A DNA stretch of 58,752 nt from a virus: IMG/VR virus record IMGVR_UViG_3300045988_067221, positions 1 through 58,752 of that record. The stretch is one strand, 5' to 3'. Positions 1,749 through 51,362 of the stretch are shown in pieces (positions within the stretch are counted from its first letter, which is position 1; every line of letters starts with the position of its first letter). Made by a program: the position numbers and the translations under genes. Under the pieces are notes generated by a model. That model was not told the origin of the DNA. It did no database searches and worked only from the letters and a program-made list of their open reading frames with translations.

Positions 1749-2712
1749 ATGGATCGTAATAAATTTAGAAAGGAAATGGCAATTGAAAGAAAAAGTTTTA
1801 TAGGGAAGAAAGTGGGCAGACTATTTGTTGCAGGACGCGCCGATGACATCATATCTCAAGACGGAAAAAGAACTATTCGATATAAATGCCTGTGCGACTG
1901 CGGAAATGAAACGATTGTAAGAAAAGCGCAGATAGCAAAAGGAGGAACTAGGTCTTGCGGTTGCATACAGAAAGAAATTGCAGCAGAGCGTCAAAGAACT
2001 CATGGATTATCTGAAAAATCTGGAAGATTATATCCTCTATGGAAAAGTATTAAATATCGTTGCTATTCAAAGACATCAAACTCCTTTCAAAATTATGGTG
2101 GAAGAGGCATTGAAATGTGTGATGAATGGAAAAACGACTTCAAAGCATTTTATGACTGGGCTATTGAAAATGGTTACAAAGAAGAAAAAAACAAGCAAGA
2201 GAATTAACGTACTTACTATAGACAGAATTGACGTTAATGGAAATTATTGTCCAGAAAATTGTAGGTTTGTGACCAATGATGTGCAGGCAAAAAATAAAAG
2301 AAATTCTATGACATATAGTGAAAAACACGCTGTATGTCCTGTATGCGGTAAAGAATACGAAAGATTATCAAGAAAAGGGCATGACACATGCAGTCGTACT
2401 TGCGCAAGAAAACTTTATTCCATCAACCATCCTAACATAAAGGATTATACAAAAATTTGTCCTATATGTAAAAAGGCATTTAATGCTAAAAGAGGAGGAC
2501 ATTTCAATGATGCTGTGTATTGTAGCAGAAAATGTAAAAATTTATCTTGTTCCCCGATTTGGGAGTATAAAGGAGAATCACACAGAGTTATTGAATGGGC
2601 TGAAATAGTAGGTATAAATGCACACTGCTTGTTGAACAGAAAAAAATTGGGATGGACTATTGAGGATATATTGACAATCCCATTGAAAGGCAGGAGAAAT
2701 GTCGAATATTAA
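1749..2712 (+). pseudogene. HNH/AP2-type homing-endonuclease-like gene split by a frameshift in an A7 run (2185-2191)
   Basis: ORF 1749-2207 (..RYKCLCDCGNETIVRKAQIAKGGTRSCGC..YGGRGIEMCDEWKNDFKAFYDWAIENGY) continues in the +1 frame of ORF 1978-2712 (..LTIDRIDVNGNYCPENCRFVTNDVQAKNKR..). Together they look like one protein. Confidence 0.6.
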
Positions 2713-3765: not shown

Positions 3766-4220
3766 AGGTTACAGAAAGAGAAGCTATTGAATATCTGAAT
3801 GGCAGGTATCTTATGGTTGGCTCACCTGAAAATCCGTCAAAAGAAGTATGTGAAAAACATAATGCAGTGTTAGAGCTGGCGATTAAAGCATTGAAGGAGC
3901 AGGAAAAACTGAAAAGAAAATATGTGACAAGAGAGCAGATAAATGAAATTGTTGCCTATATGAATGATGTGTGCGGAACATCATATAGACCAAACAACAA
4001 AGTAACCGAAAAACATATAAATGCCAGATTCGGAGAAAAGTATACCGTTGAGGATTTTAAAAAGGTTATCGACAAGAAAGCTGCGGAGTGGCTGGGGACT
4101 GATATGGAGAAGTTCTTGCGGCCTGAAACATTGTTTTGCAGCAAGTTCGAAGGATACTTAAACCAGATCAACACAGCGAAGCGCAAGAAAAGTCTTGCAG
4201 ATGAATGGGGAAACAGTTAA
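3762..4220 (+). CDS. Replication-associated protein with conserved phage C-terminal domain (DnaD/Phg_2220_C-like)
   Basis: ..YTVEDFKKVIDKKAAEWLGTDMEKFLRPETLFCSKFEGYLNQ resembles the conserved phage replisome-organiser C-terminus. Confidence 0.6.
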   Translation: MKVTEREAIEYLNGRYLMVGSPENPSKEVCEKHNAVLELAIKALKEQEKLKRKYVTREQINEIVAYMNDVCGTSYRPNNKVTEKHINARFGEKYTVEDFKKVIDKKAAEWLGTDMEKFLRPETLFCSKFEGYLNQINTAKRKKSLADEWGNS

Positions 4221-5756: not shown

Positions 5757-6887
5757 GTGGGAAAAGACTTGAAGGGAAAAGAGCTTGGTGTTGGGATTTC
5801 TCAGCAATCTGATAAATTGTATGTTGCAAGATTTACCGATAAGTTTGGAATTAGAAAAACCAAGCGATTCAAAAAATTGCAGGAATGCAGGCAATGGATT
5901 GCAGATGCAAGTTATATCAGCAAACATAGTGATATAGAAAATGCTTCTGACATACTTGTGGATACATGGTATGAATATTGGATCGGTATAAAGAAGCAAA
6001 CTGTAAGACCGAACACGGTTAGAAATTATTCCGAAAGGTATGAAAGAAATATTAAAGGAATTATAGGAAAAAAACTTCTTTCAGAAGTAAAACCAATTCA
6101 CTGCCAGAAAATTTTTTCTGATATGGCCGAGCAGGGATATAAGACTACTACAATCTATCAGACAAGGATAACTCTTTATAACATGCTTGAATTTGCAAAA
6201 GAGAATGATGTAATTTTAAGTAATCCATGTAAAAAATCTGTAAAGAGTGACATTGGGAAACCATCCGAAAAAAAAGTTGCTCTTACCATTGATGAGCAAA
6301 GAAAATTTTTAATGGCAGCGACAGGACAAAGTTATGAAAATCAATACAAATTTGTGCTTCAAACAGGGCTGAGAACAGGAGAGCTTGTAGGACTGAAGTG
6401 GAGTGATATTGATTTCGGAAAAAGAACGGTTACAATATCCAGGACGATGGAATACAGGTACAAGGTAGGAGAGTGGAGAGTTGGGCCGCCAAAAAGCAAG
6501 TCCGGTTATAGGACAATTCCTCTTACGGATGAAGCTATTAGAATCCTTAAAGATCAGAAAGAAAAGAATAGCAAAATCAAAGTTATCAATATTGAATGGA
6601 GAGATCAAGTTTTTCTTTCGAGGAAAGGGGAGCCAGTTAAAAACAGTACATATGACACTGCCTTATTTAAAATATGCGATAAAGCAGAGATAAGAAAATT
6701 TTGCATGCATATATTAAGGCATACATTTGCAACCAGATGTATTGAAGCTGGTATGATTCCGAAGACATTGCAAAAAATTCTTGGACATTCAAACATAGGG
6801 ATCACAATGAATTTGTATGTGGATGCTACAGAGGAAGAAAAAACAAAAGAGATGGATCTTGTCGCAGAAGCTCTTAAAGTAGTATAG
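5757..6887 (+). CDS. int: Tyrosine recombinase / phage integrase with N-terminal arm-binding (AP2-like) domain
   Basis: 376 aa. ..LQTGLRTGELVGLKWSDIDF.. (catalytic R box) and ..HILRHTFATRCIEAGMIPKTLQKILGHSNIGITMNLYV (HxxR..GH..Y). Confidence 0.9.
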   Translation: MGKDLKGKELGVGISQQSDKLYVARFTDKFGIRKTKRFKKLQECRQWIADASYISKHSDIENASDILVDTWYEYWIGIKKQTVRPNTVRNYSERYERNIKGIIGKKLLSEVKPIHCQKIFSDMAEQGYKTTTIYQTRITLYNMLEFAKENDVILSNPCKKSVKSDIGKPSEKKVALTIDEQRKFLMAATGQSYENQYKFVLQTGLRTGELVGLKWSDIDFGKRTVTISRTMEYRYKVGEWRVGPPKSKSGYRTIPLTDEAIRILKDQKEKNSKIKVINIEWRDQVFLSRKGEPVKNSTYDTALFKICDKAEIRKFCMHILRHTFATRCIEAGMIPKTLQKILGHSNIGITMNLYVDATEEEKTKEMDLVAEALKVV

Positions 6888-6892
6888 AACGA

Positions 6893-6918
6893 AAAAATTG
6901 GTACAGTAATTGGTACAC
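6893..6918 (+). repeat. Candidate attP arm-site pair, copy 1 (AAAAATTGGTACAGTAATTGGTACAC)
   Basis: 26-bp direct repeat of 7120-7145. Each copy holds two ATTGGTACA boxes. Lies immediately 3' of int. Confidence 0.6.
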
Positions 6919-7119
6919 TAGTAAAAATAAACAAAGAAAAATCCTTGAAAATCAAGGGATTTTAGGAGGAAATAGAGAAAATGAAATTAGGAATCGTTGT
7001 TAGGAGGGGATTTTTACAAAAATTTTTATAATTTTTCAAAAGCCTACAAAGCTTGAAAAATCAACGTTTTTTGGAGAATTTAACATTACATAAGTATTTA
7101 TAACTATTTATAAAAAAAT

Positions 7120-7145
7120 AAAAATTGGTACAGTAATTGGTACAC
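7120..7145 (+). repeat. Candidate attP arm-site pair, copy 2
   Basis: Identical 26-mer; the AT-rich ~200 bp between the copies could hold the crossover core. Confidence 0.6.
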
Positions 7146-7242
7146 CGAAAAGCCTTATGCAATTGAGAATATTATGAGAAGAAAACGAAAATTTTCTTCT
7201 CTTTTTTTATGCCAGAATATAAACAGAAGGAGGGAGAAAAGA

Positions 7243-7386
7243 ATGTTTTCAGATGAAATTTTAGAAAAGATTTTTGCCCGGAAAGAATTGCAGAGACTTG
7301 ATCTACAGACACAATCAGAAGTCATTCATGCAATTGAGAAAGTTTTAGAGGAGGTAAAAGAAGATGCCAGTTCCGTATCAGAATAA
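7243..7386 (+). CDS. Small hypothetical protein (first cargo gene)
   Basis: Internal ATG of ORF 7174-7386, preceded by RBS aggaggg. Confidence 0.5.
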   Translation: MFSDEILEKIFARKELQRLDLQTQSEVIHAIEKVLEEVKEDASSVSE

Positions 7387-15650: not shown

Positions 15651-15901
15651 TGGCAGACAATGTAAATCACCCAACGCATTATGAAACAGGAAAATTCGAG
15701 TGCATAGAAGTCATGTTGGAAACACAGGGAATTGAAGCAGTTAAAAATTTCTGTATCTGCAATGCATTTAAGTATCTTTACCGGCACTGCGGGAAGAACG
15801 GACTGGAAGACGTGAAAAAGGCAGGATGGTATATCCGAAAATACATTGAGCTGGAAGAGGGTAATGTGAATGAAGATCGGGAGCAAGGAAATCAACGATG
15901 A
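15650..15901 (+). CDS. DUF3310-like phage protein
   Basis: ..VNHPTHYETGKFECIEVM......FCICNAFKYLYR...KNG.EDVKKAGWYI. Confidence 0.7.
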   Translation: MADNVNHPTHYETGKFECIEVMLETQGIEAVKNFCICNAFKYLYRHCGKNGLEDVKKAGWYIRKYIELEEGNVNEDREQGNQR

Positions 15902-16031
15902 ATGCCAGAACTGCTCAGAAGTCCTGCAATGTGAATTGTTTCGTCAGGGGCATGGAATTGGACAGCAACGAGAAAATGTAGCTGCTATGATCGTTTGCCA
16001 ATTGGAACACCAGGGTAAGCGAAAGAAATAA

Positions 16032-16104
16032 TGGGGTATCGCCAAGCGGCTAAGGCACAGGATTTTGACTCCTGCATTCGCCGGTTCAAATCCGGCTATC
16101 TCAG
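16032..16104 (+). tRNA. tRNA-Gln (anticodon UUG)
   Basis: Hand-folded cloverleaf. Acceptor tggggta/tatctca (U1-A72 as in Firmicutes tRNA-Gln). Anticodon arm cagga-ttTTGac-tcctg. T arm gccgg-ttcaaat-ccggc. Confidence 0.85.
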
Positions 16105-16471
16105 CTAAGCGTTGATGTTGTCCTACGCTATACAAAGACAAGGTTTCAACTGGTTATGGAAGGCAAAACCATTCAAGATTCGTACCAAAAGCTAAAGCGG
16201 ATCACGATGTCATTGGTTTTCATGTGACTTCTCCTTTAAGACCCACTAGCGGAAAGCTGATTAAAGAGCCATCGCACGGCTCGGTGGGTTTTGGGTTTCG
16301 CTGCGGTAGTTACCCGTGGATTTCATCATTCCCTGTACAAAAGAATCGCAGCAGGCGGTTGTATCAAAAGTGTGGTGCCTTGGCGCAATCGTCTCAGTTC
16401 GCCGTCAACGTAAAGGCTGGCAGGTGCTTGCATATCACCTAAAATGTCATGGAGCTGACATATGCAATTCT

Positions 16472-16561
16472 GGGGAAGCGGCAACGATTGGCGGTGTTGC
16501 GGCTGACTGTAAATCAGTTCCCATGTGGTAAACAATGGAGGTTCAATTCCTCTCTTCCCCA
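16472..16561 (+). tRNA. tRNA-Tyr (anticodon GUA), class II with long variable arm
   Basis: Acceptor ggggaag/cttcccc. Anticodon arm gctga-ctGTAaa-tcagt. T arm ggagg-ttcaatt-cctct. Confidence 0.75.
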
Positions 16562-16651
16562 TTTCACTCAACTCCCTAAAAACACTGTTTGGCAGGTGCG
16601 TGGTAGACAGTCGTAATGGATGGGTTGTTTAAGAAATTGCACCATCAAGAT

Positions 16652-16737
16652 GCAGTGTTCCCATAATGGTATTGGAGCCGGTTGCTATCCGGTCGGGCGG
16701 AATATCCGCTTTGCAGGTTCAAGTCCTGCACACTGCG
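16652..16737 (+). tRNA. tRNA-Ser (anticodon GCU), class II
   Basis: Acceptor gcagtgt/acactgc. Anticodon arm gccgg-ttGCTat-ccggt. Long variable arm. T arm gcagg-ttcaagt-cctgc. Confidence 0.8.
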
Positions 16738-16741
16738 TTTT

Positions 16742-16833
16742 GCCAACGTACCGAAATGGTTATAACGGCGCTGTCTTGAAAACAGATGTGCTATGGAGAA
16801 CATGGCTTGTGGGTTCAAATCCTACCGTTGGCG
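16742..16833 (+). tRNA. tRNA-Ser (anticodon UGA), class II
   Basis: Acceptor gccaacg/cgttggc. Anticodon loop ctTGAaa. Long variable arm. T arm gtggg-ttcaaat-cctac. Confidence 0.75.
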
Positions 16834-16997
16834 TTTCCCTTCAGCAACACGACAGGCTCATGTTGATGTTGTAAATAACTTGATCTGTGAGTAGAGAATA
16901 GACATGCCGGTGATATGAGCTAGTCCGGGACTTACAGATTATATCCTTGAAGTTGCGGTTATAGTGCACAGCTGCACCGGGTTTATAGAGGATATAT

Positions 16998-17065
16998 GCG
17001 TCTGTCTGTTGGCCAGAATGAGGTCTCCAAAACCTCTAACGAAAGTTCGATGCTTTCCGGGCGTG
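16998..17065 (+). ncRNA. tRNA-Trp-like element (perfect CCA anticodon arm and T arm; weak acceptor and D arms); possibly a degenerate tRNA
   Basis: gaggt-ctCCAaa-acctc and gaaag-ttcgatg-ctttc; the acceptor pairs only through several G-U wobbles. Confidence 0.35.
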
Positions 17066-17161
17066 TTTATCTTTGTCTCCACTTAGTCGGGCACTACTGC
17101 AATAGTTCCGGTCGATGGGAGATGTATGGATAGTAGTTGTATTATCGGAAACAGAAAACTT

Positions 17162-17237
17162 GTTGCAAAGTAGAATTTGCAGATTTGAAATGCATTGGTG
17201 CGGTTTTGTCTGACGGAGTTCGACTCTCCGTGCAACT
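17162..17237 (+). ncRNA. tRNA-like element (acceptor plus canonical T arm; non-canonical middle with a 9-nt loop)
   Basis: gttgca/tgcaac acceptor, cggag-ttcgact-ctccg T arm; no standard anticodon or D arm could be drawn. Confidence 0.3.
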
Positions 17238-17290
17238 ATTTCTGGTGTTATCTGGTGTCCAGATCATAATTTGCTGAATAGCAAGCCAGA

Positions 17291-17470
17291 AAAATTCGGT
17301 GGCGGAATAGGTAAACGCGGAATCTTACACAGTTATCCTAGGAATGTAGCAGGATACTTCGCTAAAAGGCTGAGTACATTACCGTGGTGACAGTAAGTAG
17401 GAGGAAACACAACAAACTATCCTTGTGTAAGAAAAACTGCATGATGGGTGCAAATCCCATCCCGAATTTT
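17291..17470 (+). ncRNA. tRNA-Leu-like element carrying a ~100-nt insert in place of the anticodon arm
   Basis: Perfect acceptor aattcgg (17293-17299)/ccgaatt (17462-17468). Class II D arm GTGGCGGAATAGGTAAACGCGG. T arm gatggg-tgcaaat-cccatc. Long helix tcttacaca/tgtgtaaga encloses the insert. Confidence 0.4.
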
Positions 17471-17488
17471 AAAATGGAGGGAAAGAAA

Positions 17489-17725
17489 ATGTTCAGAAAA
17501 CTTTTCAACATGTGGATCAGGTATAAAACAAAGAATCTCACCAGGATTCCGCTGTTTACCATGATTTTTGATTACCGGAAATATCAGCAAGATGGCAAGC
17601 CGGGGAGTTGCACATTTTACACTCATCCGGACATTGCACAGGACGAATTTGTGAAAGAGAAACTTGGCGAAGTTGTTGACCATATCCGGGACAATTACGA
17701 TCTGGATATTTTTACGAGGGTTTGA
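17489..17725 (+). CDS. Hypothetical protein
   Basis: ATG at 17489 follows RBS ggaggg. The upstream part of ORF 17384-17725 overlaps the tRNA-like element. Confidence 0.5.
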   Translation: MFRKLFNMWIRYKTKNLTRIPLFTMIFDYRKYQQDGKPGSCTFYTHPDIAQDEFVKEKLGEVVDHIRDNYDLDIFTRV

Positions 17726-40632: not shown

Positions 40633-40665
40633 GTTCTACCTCCTACAAATAGACTCCTACATTTA

Positions 40666-40729
40666 TGAAAAACAACTGGCAGGCGGTGTAGGATTTCCGC
40701 TTTTCGTGTTGCAATCACTAGCCAGTTGT
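40666..40729 (-). terminator. Long-loop hairpin plus T-run after the Rha gene
   Basis: Minus strand: acaactggc ... gccagttgt followed by ttttt. Confidence 0.45.
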
Positions 40730-49590: not shown

Positions 49591-50205
49591 ATGGGATTAA
49601 CAATGAAAGCATTGCAGGAACAGATTGATGTGTTAAAAAAAGAAATGGAAGAGCTGAGAAGCGGCCAGAAAGTAGAATGCAACAAGAAATTTTCTAAATT
49701 TCTTACTATTGGTGAAACATTTGAACTGGCAGGAGTTAATTGGAAGATTATTGATATCACAACTGACGGTCATGTTTGCCTGTCTGATTCTATAGGTGAA
49801 ATGAAATTCAGCTCTGAAAACAATGACTGGAGAACCAGCAATCTTCGGAAGTATTTGAATGAAGAATTTTTGAAAAAGATTGAATCAGAAATCGGAGCAG
49901 GTAATCTGATAGGATTTGAAAGAAATCTTCTTTCTTTGGACGGCCAGACGGAGTACGGAACCTGTGATGATAAAGTGTCACTTTTGACAGTGGATGAGTA
50001 CCGGAAATACAGAAGGCTGATTCCAAATACAGGTGATTGGTTCTGGTTGATTTCTCCGTGGAGTACACCTTGCAATGATTTCAAAAACAGTGTTACCGTT
50101 GTTGCTCCGACTGGCCGTATCTACAACAGCAATTGCCTCGGCGGCAACGGTGTTCGCCCGTTTTGTATCTTTTCTTCTGCAATCTTTGAATCAGAGGAAA
50201 AATAA
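49591..50205 (+). CDS. DUF6273-like protein, paralog 2
   Basis: C-terminal ..WFWLISPWST....SVTVVAPTGRIYNSNCLGGNGVRPFCIFSSAIFES; the track start is 49585. Confidence 0.55.
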   Translation: MGLTMKALQEQIDVLKKEMEELRSGQKVECNKKFSKFLTIGETFELAGVNWKIIDITTDGHVCLSDSIGEMKFSSENNDWRTSNLRKYLNEEFLKKIESEIGAGNLIGFERNLLSLDGQTEYGTCDDKVSLLTVDEYRKYRRLIPNTGDWFWLISPWSTPCNDFKNSVTVVAPTGRIYNSNCLGGNGVRPFCIFSSAIFESEEK

Positions 50206-50327
50206 ATGGCGGAAACAGAACAAAAAGTAATTCTGAAAGCAAAGGTCAGAACTGGTTAGATCTGGGAAATTGCATTAAGTTGTGCCACTCGATGGATTTA
50301 TATGTAAAAGAATTATTGGAGGAATAA

Positions 50328-51362
50328 GTGATTATGGCAAATACACAGGTAGCAGAAAAGAAAGCATTTACGACCTCTTTAAGCGTATGGTCAAATGAAA
50401 TTACAGGCTTGATCGCAAGGGATTACGAGACTTGTGGAGTGCAATTTGATGATTATGCAAAAAAATGCGCTATGGAAGCGATGACCAGTATTTACACACT
50501 TGTAAAAAATGACAGTAAAACGGATATTAACAATATTGACAAGAGCAATCTGCGGCAGATTGTTGAAAACTGCGCCAGCCTTAAACTGAACGCTGGTTCC
50601 AATCCGCGAGAGTGTTTCTTCCAGCTTAGAAGTGTGAAAGTTGGGAACGACTGGATGAAAGTCGTTGAAATGGGTATTGAGGGTGATGGATATGATGCGT
50701 TACTTTCCAATTTCGGTAAAAACGTAAAGCAGGTATACCCGTTCTGGGCTGTTAAGGAAGGTGATGTATATGTGTCACCGAAACATCGTGGATTGGAAGT
50801 TGCCCCTCCGGAGTGGGAGGAGAAGGGCCTGTCAGACAAAGTGGTTCGGGTAGTATATCCGGTAAAGTTGACAGACGGAACCGTAACATACCTGATTGCA
50901 GAGCGTGATGGGGTAAAGGTAAATCTTCTGGCTCATGTAAAGCAGAATATGATGAACGCCACATTTGGCATTTGCGCTGACAGATTCAAGGCAACGGAAA
51001 AGCAGAAAGAGGAAATCAAGGCGAAGAAAACGGAGGTTCTGGATGCTATGAGAGCTTGCAAGACCGTGGATGAAATGTTGAAATGCGAGCTTGCCAGACC
51101 GTTTATCAGCGGTGCGTGGCTGGACACACCTGAAAGTATGATTCAGCGCAAGATGCGTAACAATGCAATCAGAAAATTTCCGAAGAATTACGACCCGATG
51201 GCCCGGCAGGCGCAGCTTGAAATGGACGAGGTGTACCAGGCATCGAAGGCGGAGATCGAGGAGAATGCAAATTCTATGGATTTTGAACCGGAAGAAACTG
51301 CTGGAACAGTGACCGAACCGGACGGGCAGCAGGCAATGCCGGAGTTCATGCAGGAGGGATAA
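50328..51362 (+). CDS. RecT-like single-strand annealing protein candidate
   Basis: Position between the SMC-like ATPase and the nuclease/SSB genes; ..ENCASLKLNAGSNPRECFFQLRS.. Start is GTG 50328 or ATG 50334. Confidence 0.4.
   Translation: MIMANTQVAEKKAFTTSLSVWSNEITGLIARDYETCGVQFDDYAKKCAMEAMTSIYTLVKNDSKTDINNIDKSNLRQIVENCASLKLNAGSNPRECFFQLRSVKVGNDWMKVVEMGIEGDGYDALLSNFGKNVKQVYPFWAVKEGDVYVSPKHRGLEVAPPEWEEKGLSDKVVRVVYPVKLTDGTVTYLIAERDGVKVNLLAHVKQNMMNATFGICADRFKATEKQKEEIKAKKTEVLDAMRACKTVDEMLKCELARPFISGAWLDTPESMIQRKMRNNAIRKFPKNYDPMARQAQLEMDEVYQASKAEIEENANSMDFEPEETAGTVTEPDGQQAMPEFMQEG

What the first reader, a model, noticed from the sequence alone, without database searches (positions are those of the whole stretch)
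15902..17488. 1.5-kb ORF-free RNA island: four canonical tRNAs, three aberrant tRNA-like elements and about 0.6 kb of unexplained structured spacer
I could fold four canonical tRNAs by hand:
- tRNA-Gln(UUG);
- tRNA-Tyr(GUA);
- tRNA-Ser(GCU);
- tRNA-Ser(UGA).

Three further loci carry canonical T arms plus acceptor pairing but abnormal middles (16998-17065, 17162-17237, 17291-17470).

Two GC-rich stretches contain no T-loop and no plausible ORF but many stems:
- 16105-16471 (365 nt), which includes gctgcg...cgcagc at 16300-16352 and a GAAA-capped hairpin near 16249;
- 16834-16997.

Large ornate RNAs of Firmicutes prophages (GOLLD, ROOL) are known to sit next to tRNA genes, so one of these spacers may be such an RNA or a new one. 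I cannot recall their consensus well enough to call it.
Basis: partly seen in the sequence, partly recalled or inferred. Interest (0 to 1): 0.65.

Follow-up and report, generated by a model that had tools for sequence, protein, structure and literature searches.

The report
Phage tRNA array with tRNA-like RNAs
This stretch of a gut Lachnospiraceae phage is not one giant ornate RNA but a cassette-like array of five real tRNA genes, two non-decoding tRNA-shaped RNAs and several conserved small RNA structures, and one of the tRNA-shaped RNAs belongs to a widespread, unannotated phage family also found in Bacillus, Enterococcus and Leuconostoc phages.

Summary
The four tRNAs are real: Gln-UUG, Tyr-GUA, Ser-GCU and Ser-UGA. 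The "aberrant" locus 16997-17066 is a fifth tRNA, Trp-CCA with a tiny D arm.

15902-16031 is not ORF-free. It is the tail of a conserved 53-aa gene, so the RNA island is 16032-17488.

No GOLLD, ROOL, tmRNA, group I intron or HDV-like ribozyme is present. The spacers are a mosaic of small modules that are gained, lost and shuffled with breakpoints at tRNA ends.

Several modules are conserved structured RNAs:
- **Three-way junction, 16231-16292.** It has a CUCCUUU stretch before it and a U run after it. It occurs in more than 111 gut-phage contigs, and five of its six outer-stem pairs covary.
- **Hairpin, 17076-17122.** It is almost invariant in sequence and always starts at a tRNA 3' end.
- **tRNA-like RNA, 17135-17237.**
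- **tRNA-like RNA, 17294-17470 (177 nt).** It has a tRNA-Leu-type acceptor, D arm and T arm, but a covarying roughly 105-nt domain replaces the anticodon arm.

The last one belongs to a family found at more than 100 viral loci and, unannotated, in phages phi3T, EFDG1 and Ln-9. I found no Rfam family or paper for it.

Function is inferred, not shown. My best guess is that the tRNA-like half serves as a processing and stability handle for a cargo RNA.

The parts
15870..16031 (+). Conserved 53-aa protein gene overlapping the end of the DUF3310 gene. It covers the first 130 nt of the reported 'ORF-free' interval.
   Evidence: The ORF is. tblastn gives 61-98% aa identity in the 40 hits listed.
16032..16105 (+). 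tRNA-Gln(UUG), no encoded CCA
   Evidence: ARAGORN. Rfam tRNA 57.3 bits.
16231..16292 (+). 'A core'. A single-stranded CUCCUUU (16231-16237) precedes a three-way junction. The outer stem is 16241-16246/16284-16289. The two hairpins are 16247-16259 (loop GGAAA) and 16266-16282 (7-nt loop AUCGCAC). A UUU run follows.
   Evidence: Conserved in related Gln-to-Tyr spacers. The pattern is found in more than 111 IMG/VR contigs and 8 genome contigs, 5 of them labelled Lachnospiraceae or Acetatifactor. In the outer stem 5 of 6 pairs covary, and 0/500 shuffles reach the observed score. Fold z -2.9. Terminator-like match. No Rfam hit.
16300..16353 (+). Hairpin gctgcg...cgcagc following the A core
   Evidence: Present in the MFE fold. 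GCTGCG/CGCAGC in the window corresponds to GCTGTG/CACAGC in L007, a compensatory change (alignment A2).
16471..16562 (+). tRNA-Tyr(GUA), class II with a long variable arm
   Evidence: ARAGORN. Rfam 27.4 bits, mis-aligned. 94-95% identical copies in L004 and L042.
16563..16650 (+). Leader 'B' that travels with tRNA-Ser(GCU). It holds a conserved hairpin, about 16582-16614, with the invariant loop GGCAGGUGCGUGG.
   Evidence: nhmmer hits in 12 loci. RNAalifold finds 4 pairs with compensatory changes.
16651..16738 (+). tRNA-Ser(GCU)
   Evidence: ARAGORN. Rfam 48.6 bits.
16741..16834 (+). tRNA-Ser(UGA)
   Evidence: ARAGORN. Rfam 47.3 bits.
16835..16996 (+). Spacer 'C', unassigned. It has no T loop and no homologue outside a near-identical relative.
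   Evidence: nhmmer finds 0 hits. Only L121 matches, at 98%. Fold z +0.35 and -1.2.
16997..17066 (+). tRNA-Trp(CCA) with a reduced D arm (3-bp stem, 5-nt loop), three G-U pairs in the acceptor stem and discriminator G
   Evidence: ARAGORN finds it only at -ps90. Homologues in 7 loci are called at the default setting. No Rfam tRNA hit.
17066..17134 (+). Leader 'E', which begins exactly at the tRNA 3' end. It forms a bulged hairpin, 17076-17080/17118-17122 and 17086-17112. Sequence identity is about 97% across phages.
   Evidence: 27 loci carry it, behind Trp, Ser or Arg tRNAs. Pairs 17089:17109 (G-C, U-A, A-U) and 17088:17110 (C-G, A-U) covary, and 0/500 shuffles reach the observed score.
17135..17237 (+). 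tRNA-like RNA 'F'. It has a 7-bp acceptor stem, a T arm CGGAG-UUCGACU-CUCCG, a rudimentary D arm, a non-standard 'anticodon' hairpin around the invariant GUAGAAUUUGCAGAUU, and a long variable region.
   Evidence: 26 homologues. Cloverleaf-like consensus in which three T-stem pairs show compensatory changes between the window and relatives. The acceptor-stem differences are read from the aligned sequences. Not called by default ARAGORN or by Rfam.
17238..17293 (+). Leader 'G'. This Y-shaped spacer travels with the next element.
   Evidence: Fold z -3.4. It co-occurs with element H in L121, L170 and L217, with no informative variation.
17294..17470 (+). tRNA-like RNA 'H'. The acceptor is AAUUCGG/CCGAAUU. 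The D arm is GCG-GAAUAGGUAAA-CGC. The 6-bp T stem carries the loop UGCAAAU. A roughly 105-nt structured cargo sits on a 9-bp helix (UCUUACACA/UGUGUAAGA) where the anticodon arm should be.
   Evidence: The alignment with L015 shows acceptor, T-stem and long-helix covariation. RNAalifold on 5 sequences gives 44 pairs, 15 of them with compensatory changes.
17477..17725 (+). Context: the GGAGGG ribosome-binding site and the 78-aa ORF (ATG at 17489) that start 7 nt after element H

Best explanation
16032-17488 is a modular RNA-gene array of a temperate gut phage whose hosts are probably Lachnospiraceae. It lies between the DNA-metabolism genes (MazG, DUF3310) and the packaging genes.

**Content.** The array encodes five decoding tRNAs (Gln-UUG, Tyr-GUA, Ser-GCU, Ser-UGA, Trp-CCA) and two non-decoding tRNA-shaped RNAs (17135-17237 and 17294-17470). 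Each unit comes with its own conserved leader.

**Shown.**
- The units are real and conserved, and their helices covary.
- They move as cassettes, with breakpoints at tRNA ends.
- None encodes CCA.
- All lie on the coding strand.

**Inferred.**
- The array is transcribed with the neighbouring genes.
- Host RNase P and RNase Z cut at the tRNA-shaped ends, and CCA is added afterwards.
- The true tRNAs supplement decoding.
- In the two tRNA-like RNAs, the acceptor/T helix and the D/T elbow act as a processing and stability handle. This is the same logic as engineered tRNA scaffolds and the tRNA-like module of bacterial Y RNA.
- The variable domain that replaces the anticodon arm is the working part, binding a protein or an RNA that is still unknown.
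- The three-way junction at 16231-16292 is most likely a small RNA or a 3'-end structure. It presents a single-stranded anti-Shine-Dalgarno-like CUCCUUU.
- The nearly invariant hairpin at 17076-17122 is most likely a recognition site for a processing nuclease or another protein.
For: - **tRNAs.**
- **Phage context.** Integrase, excisionase and replication proteins; MazG, DUF3310 and gp3-like.
- **Synteny.** Dulem virus 39 and 80 IMG/VR loci carry arrays of 4-8 tRNAs at the same place.
- **Mosaic conservation and cassette gain/loss.**. The E-F module is absent from the 98%-identical L121.
- **Covariation.** Element H, the A core, E, B and F.
- **H family.**
  - 106 of 117 copies have a complementary acceptor and a T loop; lengths are 70-250 nt.
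  - The top half is 98.8% paired, 10 of 16 pairs covary and 0/500 shuffles reach the observed score. This includes the T stem, which was not used to pick the sequences.
  - D-loop and T-loop bases change together between the two subfamilies.
  - 45 of 117 copies lie within 600 nt of called tRNAs.
  - Complete copies sit unannotated in the Enterococcus phage EFDG1 tRNA cluster, in Bacillus phage phi3T and in Leuconostoc phage Ln-9.
- **Not decoding tRNAs.** ARAGORN with introns allowed assigns essentially random anticodons, and the shortest member has only 19 nt between the D and T arms.
- **No CCA; trailers begin with U in five of the seven tRNA or tRNA-like units.** Read.
Against: - Transcription, processing and CCA addition are therefore all inferred.
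- No target of the cargo domains was found. Complementarity to the rest of the window is no better than for shuffled sequences.
- No protein gene is consistently linked to the family.
- The A core also matches a plain intrinsic-terminator pattern.
- Its two inner hairpins were fixed by the search pattern, so their invariance says nothing.
- The hairpin at 17076-17122 has few informative substitutions. Its extreme sequence conservation could reflect a DNA-level site.
- 16835-16996 and 16106-16231 remain unassigned.
- The family was collected with an exact D-arm pattern, so its true breadth and diversity are not sampled evenly.
Confidence: 0.6

Rival explanations
1. The tRNA-like RNAs are functional tRNA mimics rather than passive scaffolds. 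In one version they are charged, with Leu for example, because LeuRS does not read the anticodon (my own knowledge), and act like a small tmRNA or an amino-acid donor. In another version they act as decoys or sponges for host tRNA-binding enzymes or tRNA-targeting defence nucleases.
For: - The D arm is that of tRNA-Leu (GGUGGCGGAAUNGGUAAACGC), and the elbow bases are kept.
- Subfamily 2 has discriminator A in 27 of 30 copies.
- RtcB RNA ligase genes occur near some copies and in Dulem virus 39.
- One phage array also holds a real tmRNA.
Against: - In subfamily 1, which includes the window, the discriminator is not conserved: A 23, U 17, G 3, C 1. The window has U.
- ARAGORN finds no tmRNA.
- No conserved reading frame or tag was seen in the cargo domains.
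- There is no consistent link to repair or defence genes.
Confidence: 0.2
2. The odd elements and spacers are decaying pseudo-tRNAs and neutral filler left by duplication and loss in a tRNA array. They have no function of their own.
For: - The array is highly plastic.
- Several spacer pieces fold no better than shuffles.
- 16835-16996 has no distant homologue.
Against: - Compensatory changes maintain helices in H, F, the A core, E and B.
- Hairpin E is about 97% identical among phages whose DUF3310 protein is about 78% identical.
- The H-type top half is kept across more than 100 otherwise unrelated viral contigs and three cultured phage groups.
Confidence: 0.08
3. 17294-17470 and its relatives are true tRNA genes interrupted by an intron. 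Splicing would restore a normal anticodon arm.
For: Relaxed ARAGORN models it as tRNA-Val(tac) with an 88-nt intron. Bacterial tRNA-Leu genes are known hosts of group I introns (my own knowledge).
Against: - The proposed anticodon stem does not covary. L015 changes GG to AA on one side only.
- The covarying helix is the long one that continues into the insert.
- There is no group I intron hit in Rfam, and inserts of 19-200 nt are too short and too diverse.
- 'Anticodons' across the family are random.
Confidence: 0.04
4. One of the long spacers is a member or relative of the large ornate RNAs (GOLLD, ROOL). Alternatively, a self-cleaving ribozyme (HDV-like 'theta', hammerhead or twister) trims the neighbouring tRNA.
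For: - Such RNAs are known next to phage tRNAs. For theta ribozymes see PMC10879173.
- Hairpin E starts exactly at tRNA 3' ends and is extremely conserved.
Against: - No Rfam hit to any of these families appears at E<=10 in 15700-17700, or at E<=1 in six related islands.
- A home-made HDV-like descriptor finds nothing in 16000-17520.
- Conserved units are 50-180 nt, not 500-800 nt.
Confidence: 0.04

Closest known systems
Phage tRNA gene clusters, for example the phage T4 tRNA region with its extra stable RNAs C and D (my own knowledge), and the tRNA cluster of Enterococcus phage EFDG1
   Same: Several tRNA genes lie on one strand between early and late genes. CCA is not encoded. Small stable non-tRNA RNAs are interspersed.
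   Different: The spacers here are long (90-365 nt). They carry their own conserved, covarying structures and move as leader-plus-gene cassettes.
YrlA, the bacterial Y RNA with a tRNA-like module (PMC4201824)
   Same: A non-decoding RNA keeps the D arm, T arm and acceptor-like stem of a tRNA, joined to a long helix. In YrlA the module is recognised by RNase P, CCA-adding enzyme and tRNA-modifying enzymes.
   Different: - YrlA is circularly permuted: the order is T arm, closed acceptor stem, D arm, with the RNA ends in the Ro-binding helix. The elements here have the normal tRNA order with open acceptor ends.
- No Ro60/Rsr gene was seen among the window proteins I scanned or among the recurrent neighbour gene clusters of the family.
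- There is no Rfam hit.
Engineered tRNA scaffolds for RNA expression (Ponchon and Dardel 2007; my own knowledge)
   Same: The architecture is identical: the anticodon arm of a tRNA is replaced by an arbitrary structured RNA. The tRNA part gives processing and nuclease resistance.
   Different: Those are artificial. A natural, widespread phage counterpart has not, to my knowledge or in the papers I searched, been described.
tmRNA
   Same: It has a tRNA-like acceptor/T domain with a large non-tRNA insert, and it occurs in some phages.
   Different: There is no G3-U70 pair, no pseudoknots and no tag reading frame. The elements here have a real D stem. ARAGORN and Rfam tmRNA models do not match.
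Theta (minimal HDV-like) ribozymes next to gut-phage tRNAs (PMC10879173)
   Same: A conserved structured element abuts the end of phage tRNAs in gut phages.
   Different: No HDV-like nested double pseudoknot could be built, and no Rfam HDV-type hit was found.
GOLLD and ROOL large ornate RNAs
   Same: They occur in prophages of Firmicutes, next to tRNA genes.
   Different: There is no sequence or structure match. Conserved units here are 5-10 times smaller and independent of each other.

Membership tests
tRNA (canonical, decoding) | Cloverleaf with a 7-bp acceptor stem, D arm, 5-bp anticodon stem with a 7-nt loop (U33, purine 37) and T arm, recognised by tRNA finders | tested here: met
   - Gln, Tyr, Ser and Ser are called by default ARAGORN. 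Three pass the Rfam gathering score.
- Trp(CCA) at 16997-17066 meets all features except a full D arm. Its orthologues are called at the default setting.
tRNA (canonical, decoding), applied to 17135-17237 and 17294-17470 | A conserved anticodon arm with a 7-nt loop in the right place | tested here: not met
   - There is no default ARAGORN or Rfam call.
- In H the arm is replaced by a covarying 9-bp helix plus about 85 nt.
- In F the register of the hairpin differs between the window and relatives.
- Family-wide 'anticodons' are random.
GOLLD / ROOL | Match to the Rfam covariance models; a conserved multi-domain RNA of 500-800 nt | tested here: not met
   There are no hits at E<=10. Conservation is confined to short independent modules.
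tmRNA | tRNA-Ala-like domain, tag reading frame and pseudoknots, detected by ARAGORN or Rfam | tested here: not met
   ARAGORN -m and Rfam find none in the window. The same tools do find a tmRNA in L141.
Group I intron in a tRNA gene | An intron of 200 nt or more with the P3-P7 core; exons that rebuild the anticodon arm | tested here: not met
   There is no Rfam intron hit. Inserts are 19-200 nt. The exon anticodon stem is not supported by covariation.
HDV-like / theta ribozyme | A nested double pseudoknot (P1 of 7 bp starting at the cleavage site, P1.1, P2, P3) with a catalytic C in J4/2 | tested here: not met
   There is no Rfam HDV-type hit. My own loose descriptor gives 0 hits in 16000-17520. 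The published RNArobo descriptor itself was not run.
Self-cleavage of any kind at the tRNA / hairpin E boundary | Site-specific cleavage of the transcript without protein | not testable with these tools
   This needs in vitro transcription of 16997-17134.
YrlA / bacterial Y RNA | A permuted tRNA-like module (T arm, closed acceptor, D arm), a Ro-binding helix at the RNA ends, and a neighbouring rsr gene | tested here: not met
   The order here is D arm, insert, T arm, with open acceptor ends. The features are taken from PMC4201824. No rsr-like gene was noted among the window proteins I scanned or among the recurrent neighbours.
Proposed 'tRNA-Leu-type scaffold RNA' family (this report) | A 7-bp acceptor stem; UG; the D arm GCG-GAAUNGGUAAA-CGC; a variable insert; a T arm with loop UGCAAAU (6-bp stem) or UUCGAAU (5-bp stem); the complementary acceptor 3' strand | tested here: met
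   The window element 17294-17470 has every feature. 106 of 117 pattern hits share them. For covariation.
Proposed 'tRNA-Leu-type scaffold RNA' family (this report) | Expressed as a discrete stable RNA with tRNA-like ends and added CCA | not testable with these tools
Intrinsic (Rho-independent) terminator, applied to 16241-16292 | A GC-rich stem directly followed by a U run | tested here: inconclusive
   The pattern scan matches. However, the structure is a conserved three-way junction with invariant loops. In several lineages it is followed by further conserved sequence, GGGUUUYGYUGC.

The most novel reading that the evidence does not exclude
The 17294-17470 element represents an undescribed, widespread class of phage non-coding RNAs. 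In it, a tRNA-Leu-type acceptor/D/T 'top half' serves as a natural scaffold carrying diverse structured cargo domains in place of the anticodon arm.

The class ranges from gut Lachnospiraceae phages to environmental viral contigs. It also occurs in cultured phages of Bacillus (phi3T), Enterococcus (EFDG1 group) and Leuconostoc (Ln-9 group), where it is unannotated and experimentally accessible.

The same island also carries a second candidate new small RNA, the CUCCUUU-plus-three-way-junction element at 16231-16292.
Probability: 0.45. Interest if true: 0.75.

Novelty: new variant of a known kind. Interest (0 to 1): 0.6.

Why it matters
Phage tRNA clusters are usually annotated as tRNAs plus empty spacers, or, as in Dulem virus 39, with spurious 'hypothetical proteins' laid over the RNA genes.

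This island shows that much of the 'spacer' is selected RNA structure. One element opens onto a family of tRNA-shaped but non-decoding RNAs at more than 100 viral loci and in model phages.

If these RNAs are expressed and processed like tRNAs, they would be a natural version of the tRNA-scaffold trick used in RNA engineering. They would also be a new way for phages to deliver stable regulatory or decoy RNAs into the host. That is directly testable in B. subtilis phi3T or Enterococcus EFDG1.

The work also flags a practical gap. ARAGORN at default settings misses these elements. Rfam misses the UGCAAAU-loop subfamily and scores only a few of the UUCGAAU-loop copies as tRNA. Rfam also misses the reduced-D-arm tRNA-Trp of this phage lineage, and it gives no hit to the lineage's tRNA-Met, for reasons I did not examine.

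Tried and rejected
- **Rfam.** Gathering and E<=10 scans of the window, six related islands and 18 family loci found nothing except tRNAs, one tmRNA elsewhere, RAGATH-27 in Dulem virus 39 and chance-level hits.
- **RAGATH-27.** It is not related to the window's three-way junction.
- **Relaxed ARAGORN intron models.** I rejected them for the two tRNA-like RNAs because the proposed anticodon stems do not covary.
- **HDV-like/theta ribozyme.** Reading the paper gave no usable consensus. My own descriptor found nothing.
- **Sigma-54 promoter.** I considered this reading for the repeat TGGCAGGUGC(U/G)UG and rejected it by eye, because the GG-N9-GC spacing is one base short.
- **Promoter scan.** It was not above shuffles.
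- **Antisense targets.** Targets of the cargo domain, the A core, F and E within the window are no better than for shuffled sequences.
- **Gene-neighbourhood clustering.** Around 117 family copies there is no common partner. RtcB appears in only 4 loci.
- **Coding reading of spacer ORFs (16224-16442 and others).** I rejected it because relatives carry 1-3-nt indels there, alongside the compensatory RNA changes.
- **Literature.** Searches for an existing description of the family found none. The 10,006-motif virus catalogue (PMC10690425) may contain some of these elements, but its sequences are not held.
Full report
**Setting.** The window looks like a complete temperate siphophage-type genome. 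It has an integrase, excisionase, replication initiator and helicase loader. MazG, DUF3310 and a gp3-like packaging protein lie upstream of the island, and large genes lie downstream. The conserved RNA element described below is found in eight genome contigs, five of them labelled Lachnospiraceae or Acetatifactor and the others Clostridia, Firmicutes, Bacteroidaceae and an unclassified bacterium. Its viral relatives come almost entirely from human-gut-type IMG/VR datasets. Dulem virus 39, from lemur faeces, shows the same order: 'nucleotide kinase' (DUF3310), then a tRNA island.

**Checking the observation.**
Rfam confirms three above threshold and Tyr just below, mis-aligned.
- The interval is not wholly ORF-free. 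ORF 15870-16031 encodes a 53-aa protein that is 61-98% identical in the 40 hits I listed. The RNA island proper is therefore 16032-17488.
- The island is modestly richer in G+C than its flanks, and its AT skew flips, as expected for non-coding DNA.
- Stability beyond dinucleotide shuffles is seen for only some pieces.

**The three 'aberrant' loci.**
1. **16997-17066** is a tRNA-Trp(CCA).
   - It has a normal anticodon arm and T arm, discriminator G, three G-U pairs in the acceptor stem and a D arm shrunk to 3 bp plus 5 nt.
   - Default ARAGORN misses it in the window but calls its near-identical orthologues in seven related phages. Rfam misses all of them.
2. **17135-17237**, not 17162-17237, is a tRNA-shaped RNA.
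   - The acceptor is AGTTGTA/TGCAACT in the window and AGTTGCT/GGCAACT in relatives, and three T-stem pairs show compensatory changes.
   - It has a rudimentary D arm and a long variable region. The central hairpin changes pairing register between the window and relatives, while the sequence GUAGAAUUUGCAGAUU stays invariant. It is not a decoding tRNA.
3. **17294-17470** has a perfect tRNA-Leu-type top half.
   - It has a 7-bp acceptor, UG, the D arm GCG-GAAUAGGUAAA-CGC and a T arm with loop UGCAAAU.
   - The anticodon arm is replaced by a 9-bp helix that leads into a branched domain of about 85 nt.
   - Against L015 and L159 the acceptor, the T stem, the long helix and the inner helices all show compensatory changes. 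Of 44 predicted pairs, 15 have double changes.
   - The intron model offered by relaxed ARAGORN is contradicted. Its anticodon stem changes on one side only.

**A family behind the third element.**
- **Shape.** In 106 of 117 copies the 7 nt before the pattern are complementary to 7 nt that follow a T loop 60-230 nt downstream. Total lengths are 70-250 nt.
- **Two subfamilies.**
  - One has a variable acceptor, a 6-bp T stem and loop UGCAAAU. The window belongs here.
  - The other has an almost invariant AGUCAGG/CCUGACU acceptor and loop UUCGAAU.
- **Covariation.** In 38 distinct subfamily-1 sequences the top half is 98.8% paired and 10 of 16 pairs show double changes. No shuffle or slid register comes close. 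The T stem, which played no part in selecting the sequences, is 99.6% paired, and 5 of its 6 pairs covary.
- **Elbow.** The D-loop base before GG and T-loop position 55 change together: A with G 40 times, U with U 26 times. This is suggestive of a preserved elbow, although it is confounded with subfamily.
- **Inserts.** They are diverse in sequence and length, fall into several recurring types, and usually begin and end with complementary strands. The shortest is 19 nt and cannot form an anticodon arm.
- **Tools.** ARAGORN with introns allowed assigns scattered, evidently meaningless anticodons. Rfam has no model for subfamily 1 and scores only a few subfamily-2 copies as tRNA with a large insertion.
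- **Context.** About 40% of copies sit in tRNA arrays on the same strand. No protein gene is consistently nearby.
- **Cultured phages.** Complete copies exist, unannotated, in the tRNA cluster of Enterococcus phage EFDG1 and its relatives, downstream of the yonN homologue in Bacillus phage phi3T, and near the left end of Leuconostoc phages such as Ln-9.
- **Literature.** I found no paper describing this family.

**The two 'unexplained' spacers.** They are not units.
- **16105-16471.** Only 16231-16292 is broadly conserved.
  - It consists of CUCCUUU, then a three-way junction and then a U run. The junction has a 6-bp outer stem enclosing UAGC-GGAAA-GCUG and GAGCC-AUCGCAC-GGCUC.
  - The pattern occurs in more than 111 viral contigs. 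In another lineage it lies between tRNA-Gly and tRNA-Met rather than after tRNA-Gln.
  - The outer stem exists in at least six compensating versions: CCCAC/GUGGG, CCUCA/UGAGG, CCAUC/GAUGG, CCUAU/AUAGG, CCCCA/UGGGG and CACAC/GUGUG. Five of six pairs covary, and 0/500 shuffles reach the observed score.
  - The pyrimidine stretch before it is kept in most lineages and often reads GGAUCCUCCUUUC. That resembles the 3' end of 16S rRNA, which is my own knowledge and a lead only.
  - The element also fits a terminator pattern.
  - The rest, 16106-16231 and 16354-16470, is conserved only in near-identical phages and folds no better than shuffles.
- **16834-16997.** It has no homologue except in a 98%-identical relative and remains unassigned.

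**Other conserved leaders.**
- **Hairpin E.** Directly after tRNA-Trp comes a 60-nt element (17066-17125) that is about 97% identical in 27 loci. In those loci it follows Trp, Ser or Arg tRNAs and always starts at the tRNA 3' end. Its inner hairpin has two covarying pairs.
- **Leader B.** The Tyr-to-Ser spacer carries a conserved hairpin in an alignment with four compensating pairs, two of them in the hairpin, and an invariant loop.
- **Leader G.** The Y-shaped spacer 17238-17293 always accompanies the tRNA-Leu-like element.
- **Cassette behaviour.** Comparison with close relatives shows whole leader-plus-gene cassettes present or absent, with breakpoints at tRNA ends. L121 lacks 17069-17238, and L170 lacks Ser-UGA through Trp.

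**What it is not.**
- There is no GOLLD, ROOL, tmRNA, intron or known ribozyme.
- There is no HDV-like fold by my own descriptor.
- There is no YrlA-type permuted module.

**How it most likely works.**
- **Shown:** a strand-consistent, modular array of tRNA and tRNA-shaped genes with selected secondary structure, and no encoded CCA.
- **Inferred:**
  - The array is co-transcribed and cut by RNase P and RNase Z at tRNA-shaped ends, after which CCA is added.
  - The five tRNAs supplement decoding.
  - The tRNA-like RNAs use the tRNA top half as a handle for processing and protection, while the cargo domain acts on an unknown partner.
  - The three-way-junction element is a small RNA or 3'-end structure.
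  - Hairpin E is a protein or nuclease recognition site.
- In the window, and in about a fifth of family members, a ribosome-binding site follows the tRNA-like RNA within 12 nt. Cleavage there could also define the 5' end of the downstream mRNA.
- None of this could be tested against reads.

**Verdict.** The residue is more interesting than an ordinary tRNA cluster because it leads to an apparently undescribed, widespread family of tRNA-scaffolded phage RNAs that can be studied in model phages.

Noticed in passing
window 40660-40728 (-): Rfam int-alpA RNA match at 51.7 bits (gathering score 35.8), far from the island, next to minus-strand ORFs.
   Followed up: no
L001 (Dulem virus 39, PP511791) 3772-3855 and 6199-7323: A RAGATH-27 RNA (77.2 bits) sits inside the syntenic tRNA island, and an RtcB RNA ligase gene lies downstream. 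The record annotates 'hypothetical proteins' across the tRNA genes.
   Followed up: partly
L014 3595-3664 and 4001-4075; L044 3770-3839 and 4174-4248; L020 3318-3392: ARAGORN calls tRNA-Trp(CCA) (L014, L044) and tRNA-Met(CAT) (all three) in these related phages. They get no Rfam tRNA hit even at E<=1, so this lineage has several off-model tRNAs.
   Followed up: partly
L313 (Enterococcus phage EFDG1, NC_029009 46500-46691); L314 (Bacillus phage phi3T, KY030782, about 50200-50330); L315 (Leuconostoc phage Ln-9, NC_027358, about 150-280): Complete tRNA-Leu-type scaffold RNAs with the UGCAAAU T loop lie in cultured phages with no annotation. In phi3T, a 'hypothetical protein' begins right after it.
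   Followed up: partly
L141 1303-1794: A phage-encoded tmRNA (Rfam 64.5 bits) lies inside a tRNA array of at least 14 genes that also ends with a scaffold RNA.
   Followed up: no
window 16418-16430 and 16590-16602: The 13-nt repeat TGGCAGGTGC(T/G)TG occurs about 40-50 nt upstream of tRNA-Tyr and of tRNA-Ser(GCU). The first copy overlaps a weak sigma-70-like match, and the second is the invariant loop of the leader hairpin.
   Followed up: partly
window 17069-17238, compared with L121 8137-8139: The hairpin-plus-tRNA-like module is precisely absent from a 96-98% identical phage. This shows recent cassette gain or loss at a tRNA 3' end. In L024 a deletion between two direct repeats (GGATAGT...) removes the tRNA-like gene only.
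   Followed up: partly
window 17477-17491, and the 3' flanks of family members (for example L181, L136, L089): A GGAG-type ribosome-binding site and a start codon follow the tRNA-like RNA within about 12-20 nt in roughly 9 of 44 copies.
   Followed up: partly
L118 74-110 (-): Rfam abiF RNA match right at its gathering score (37.2 against 37).
   Followed up: no
window 1978-2712 (+): An HNH endonuclease gene lies in the early region. HNH and homing endonuclease genes also sit inside the EFDG1 tRNA cluster.
   Followed up: no
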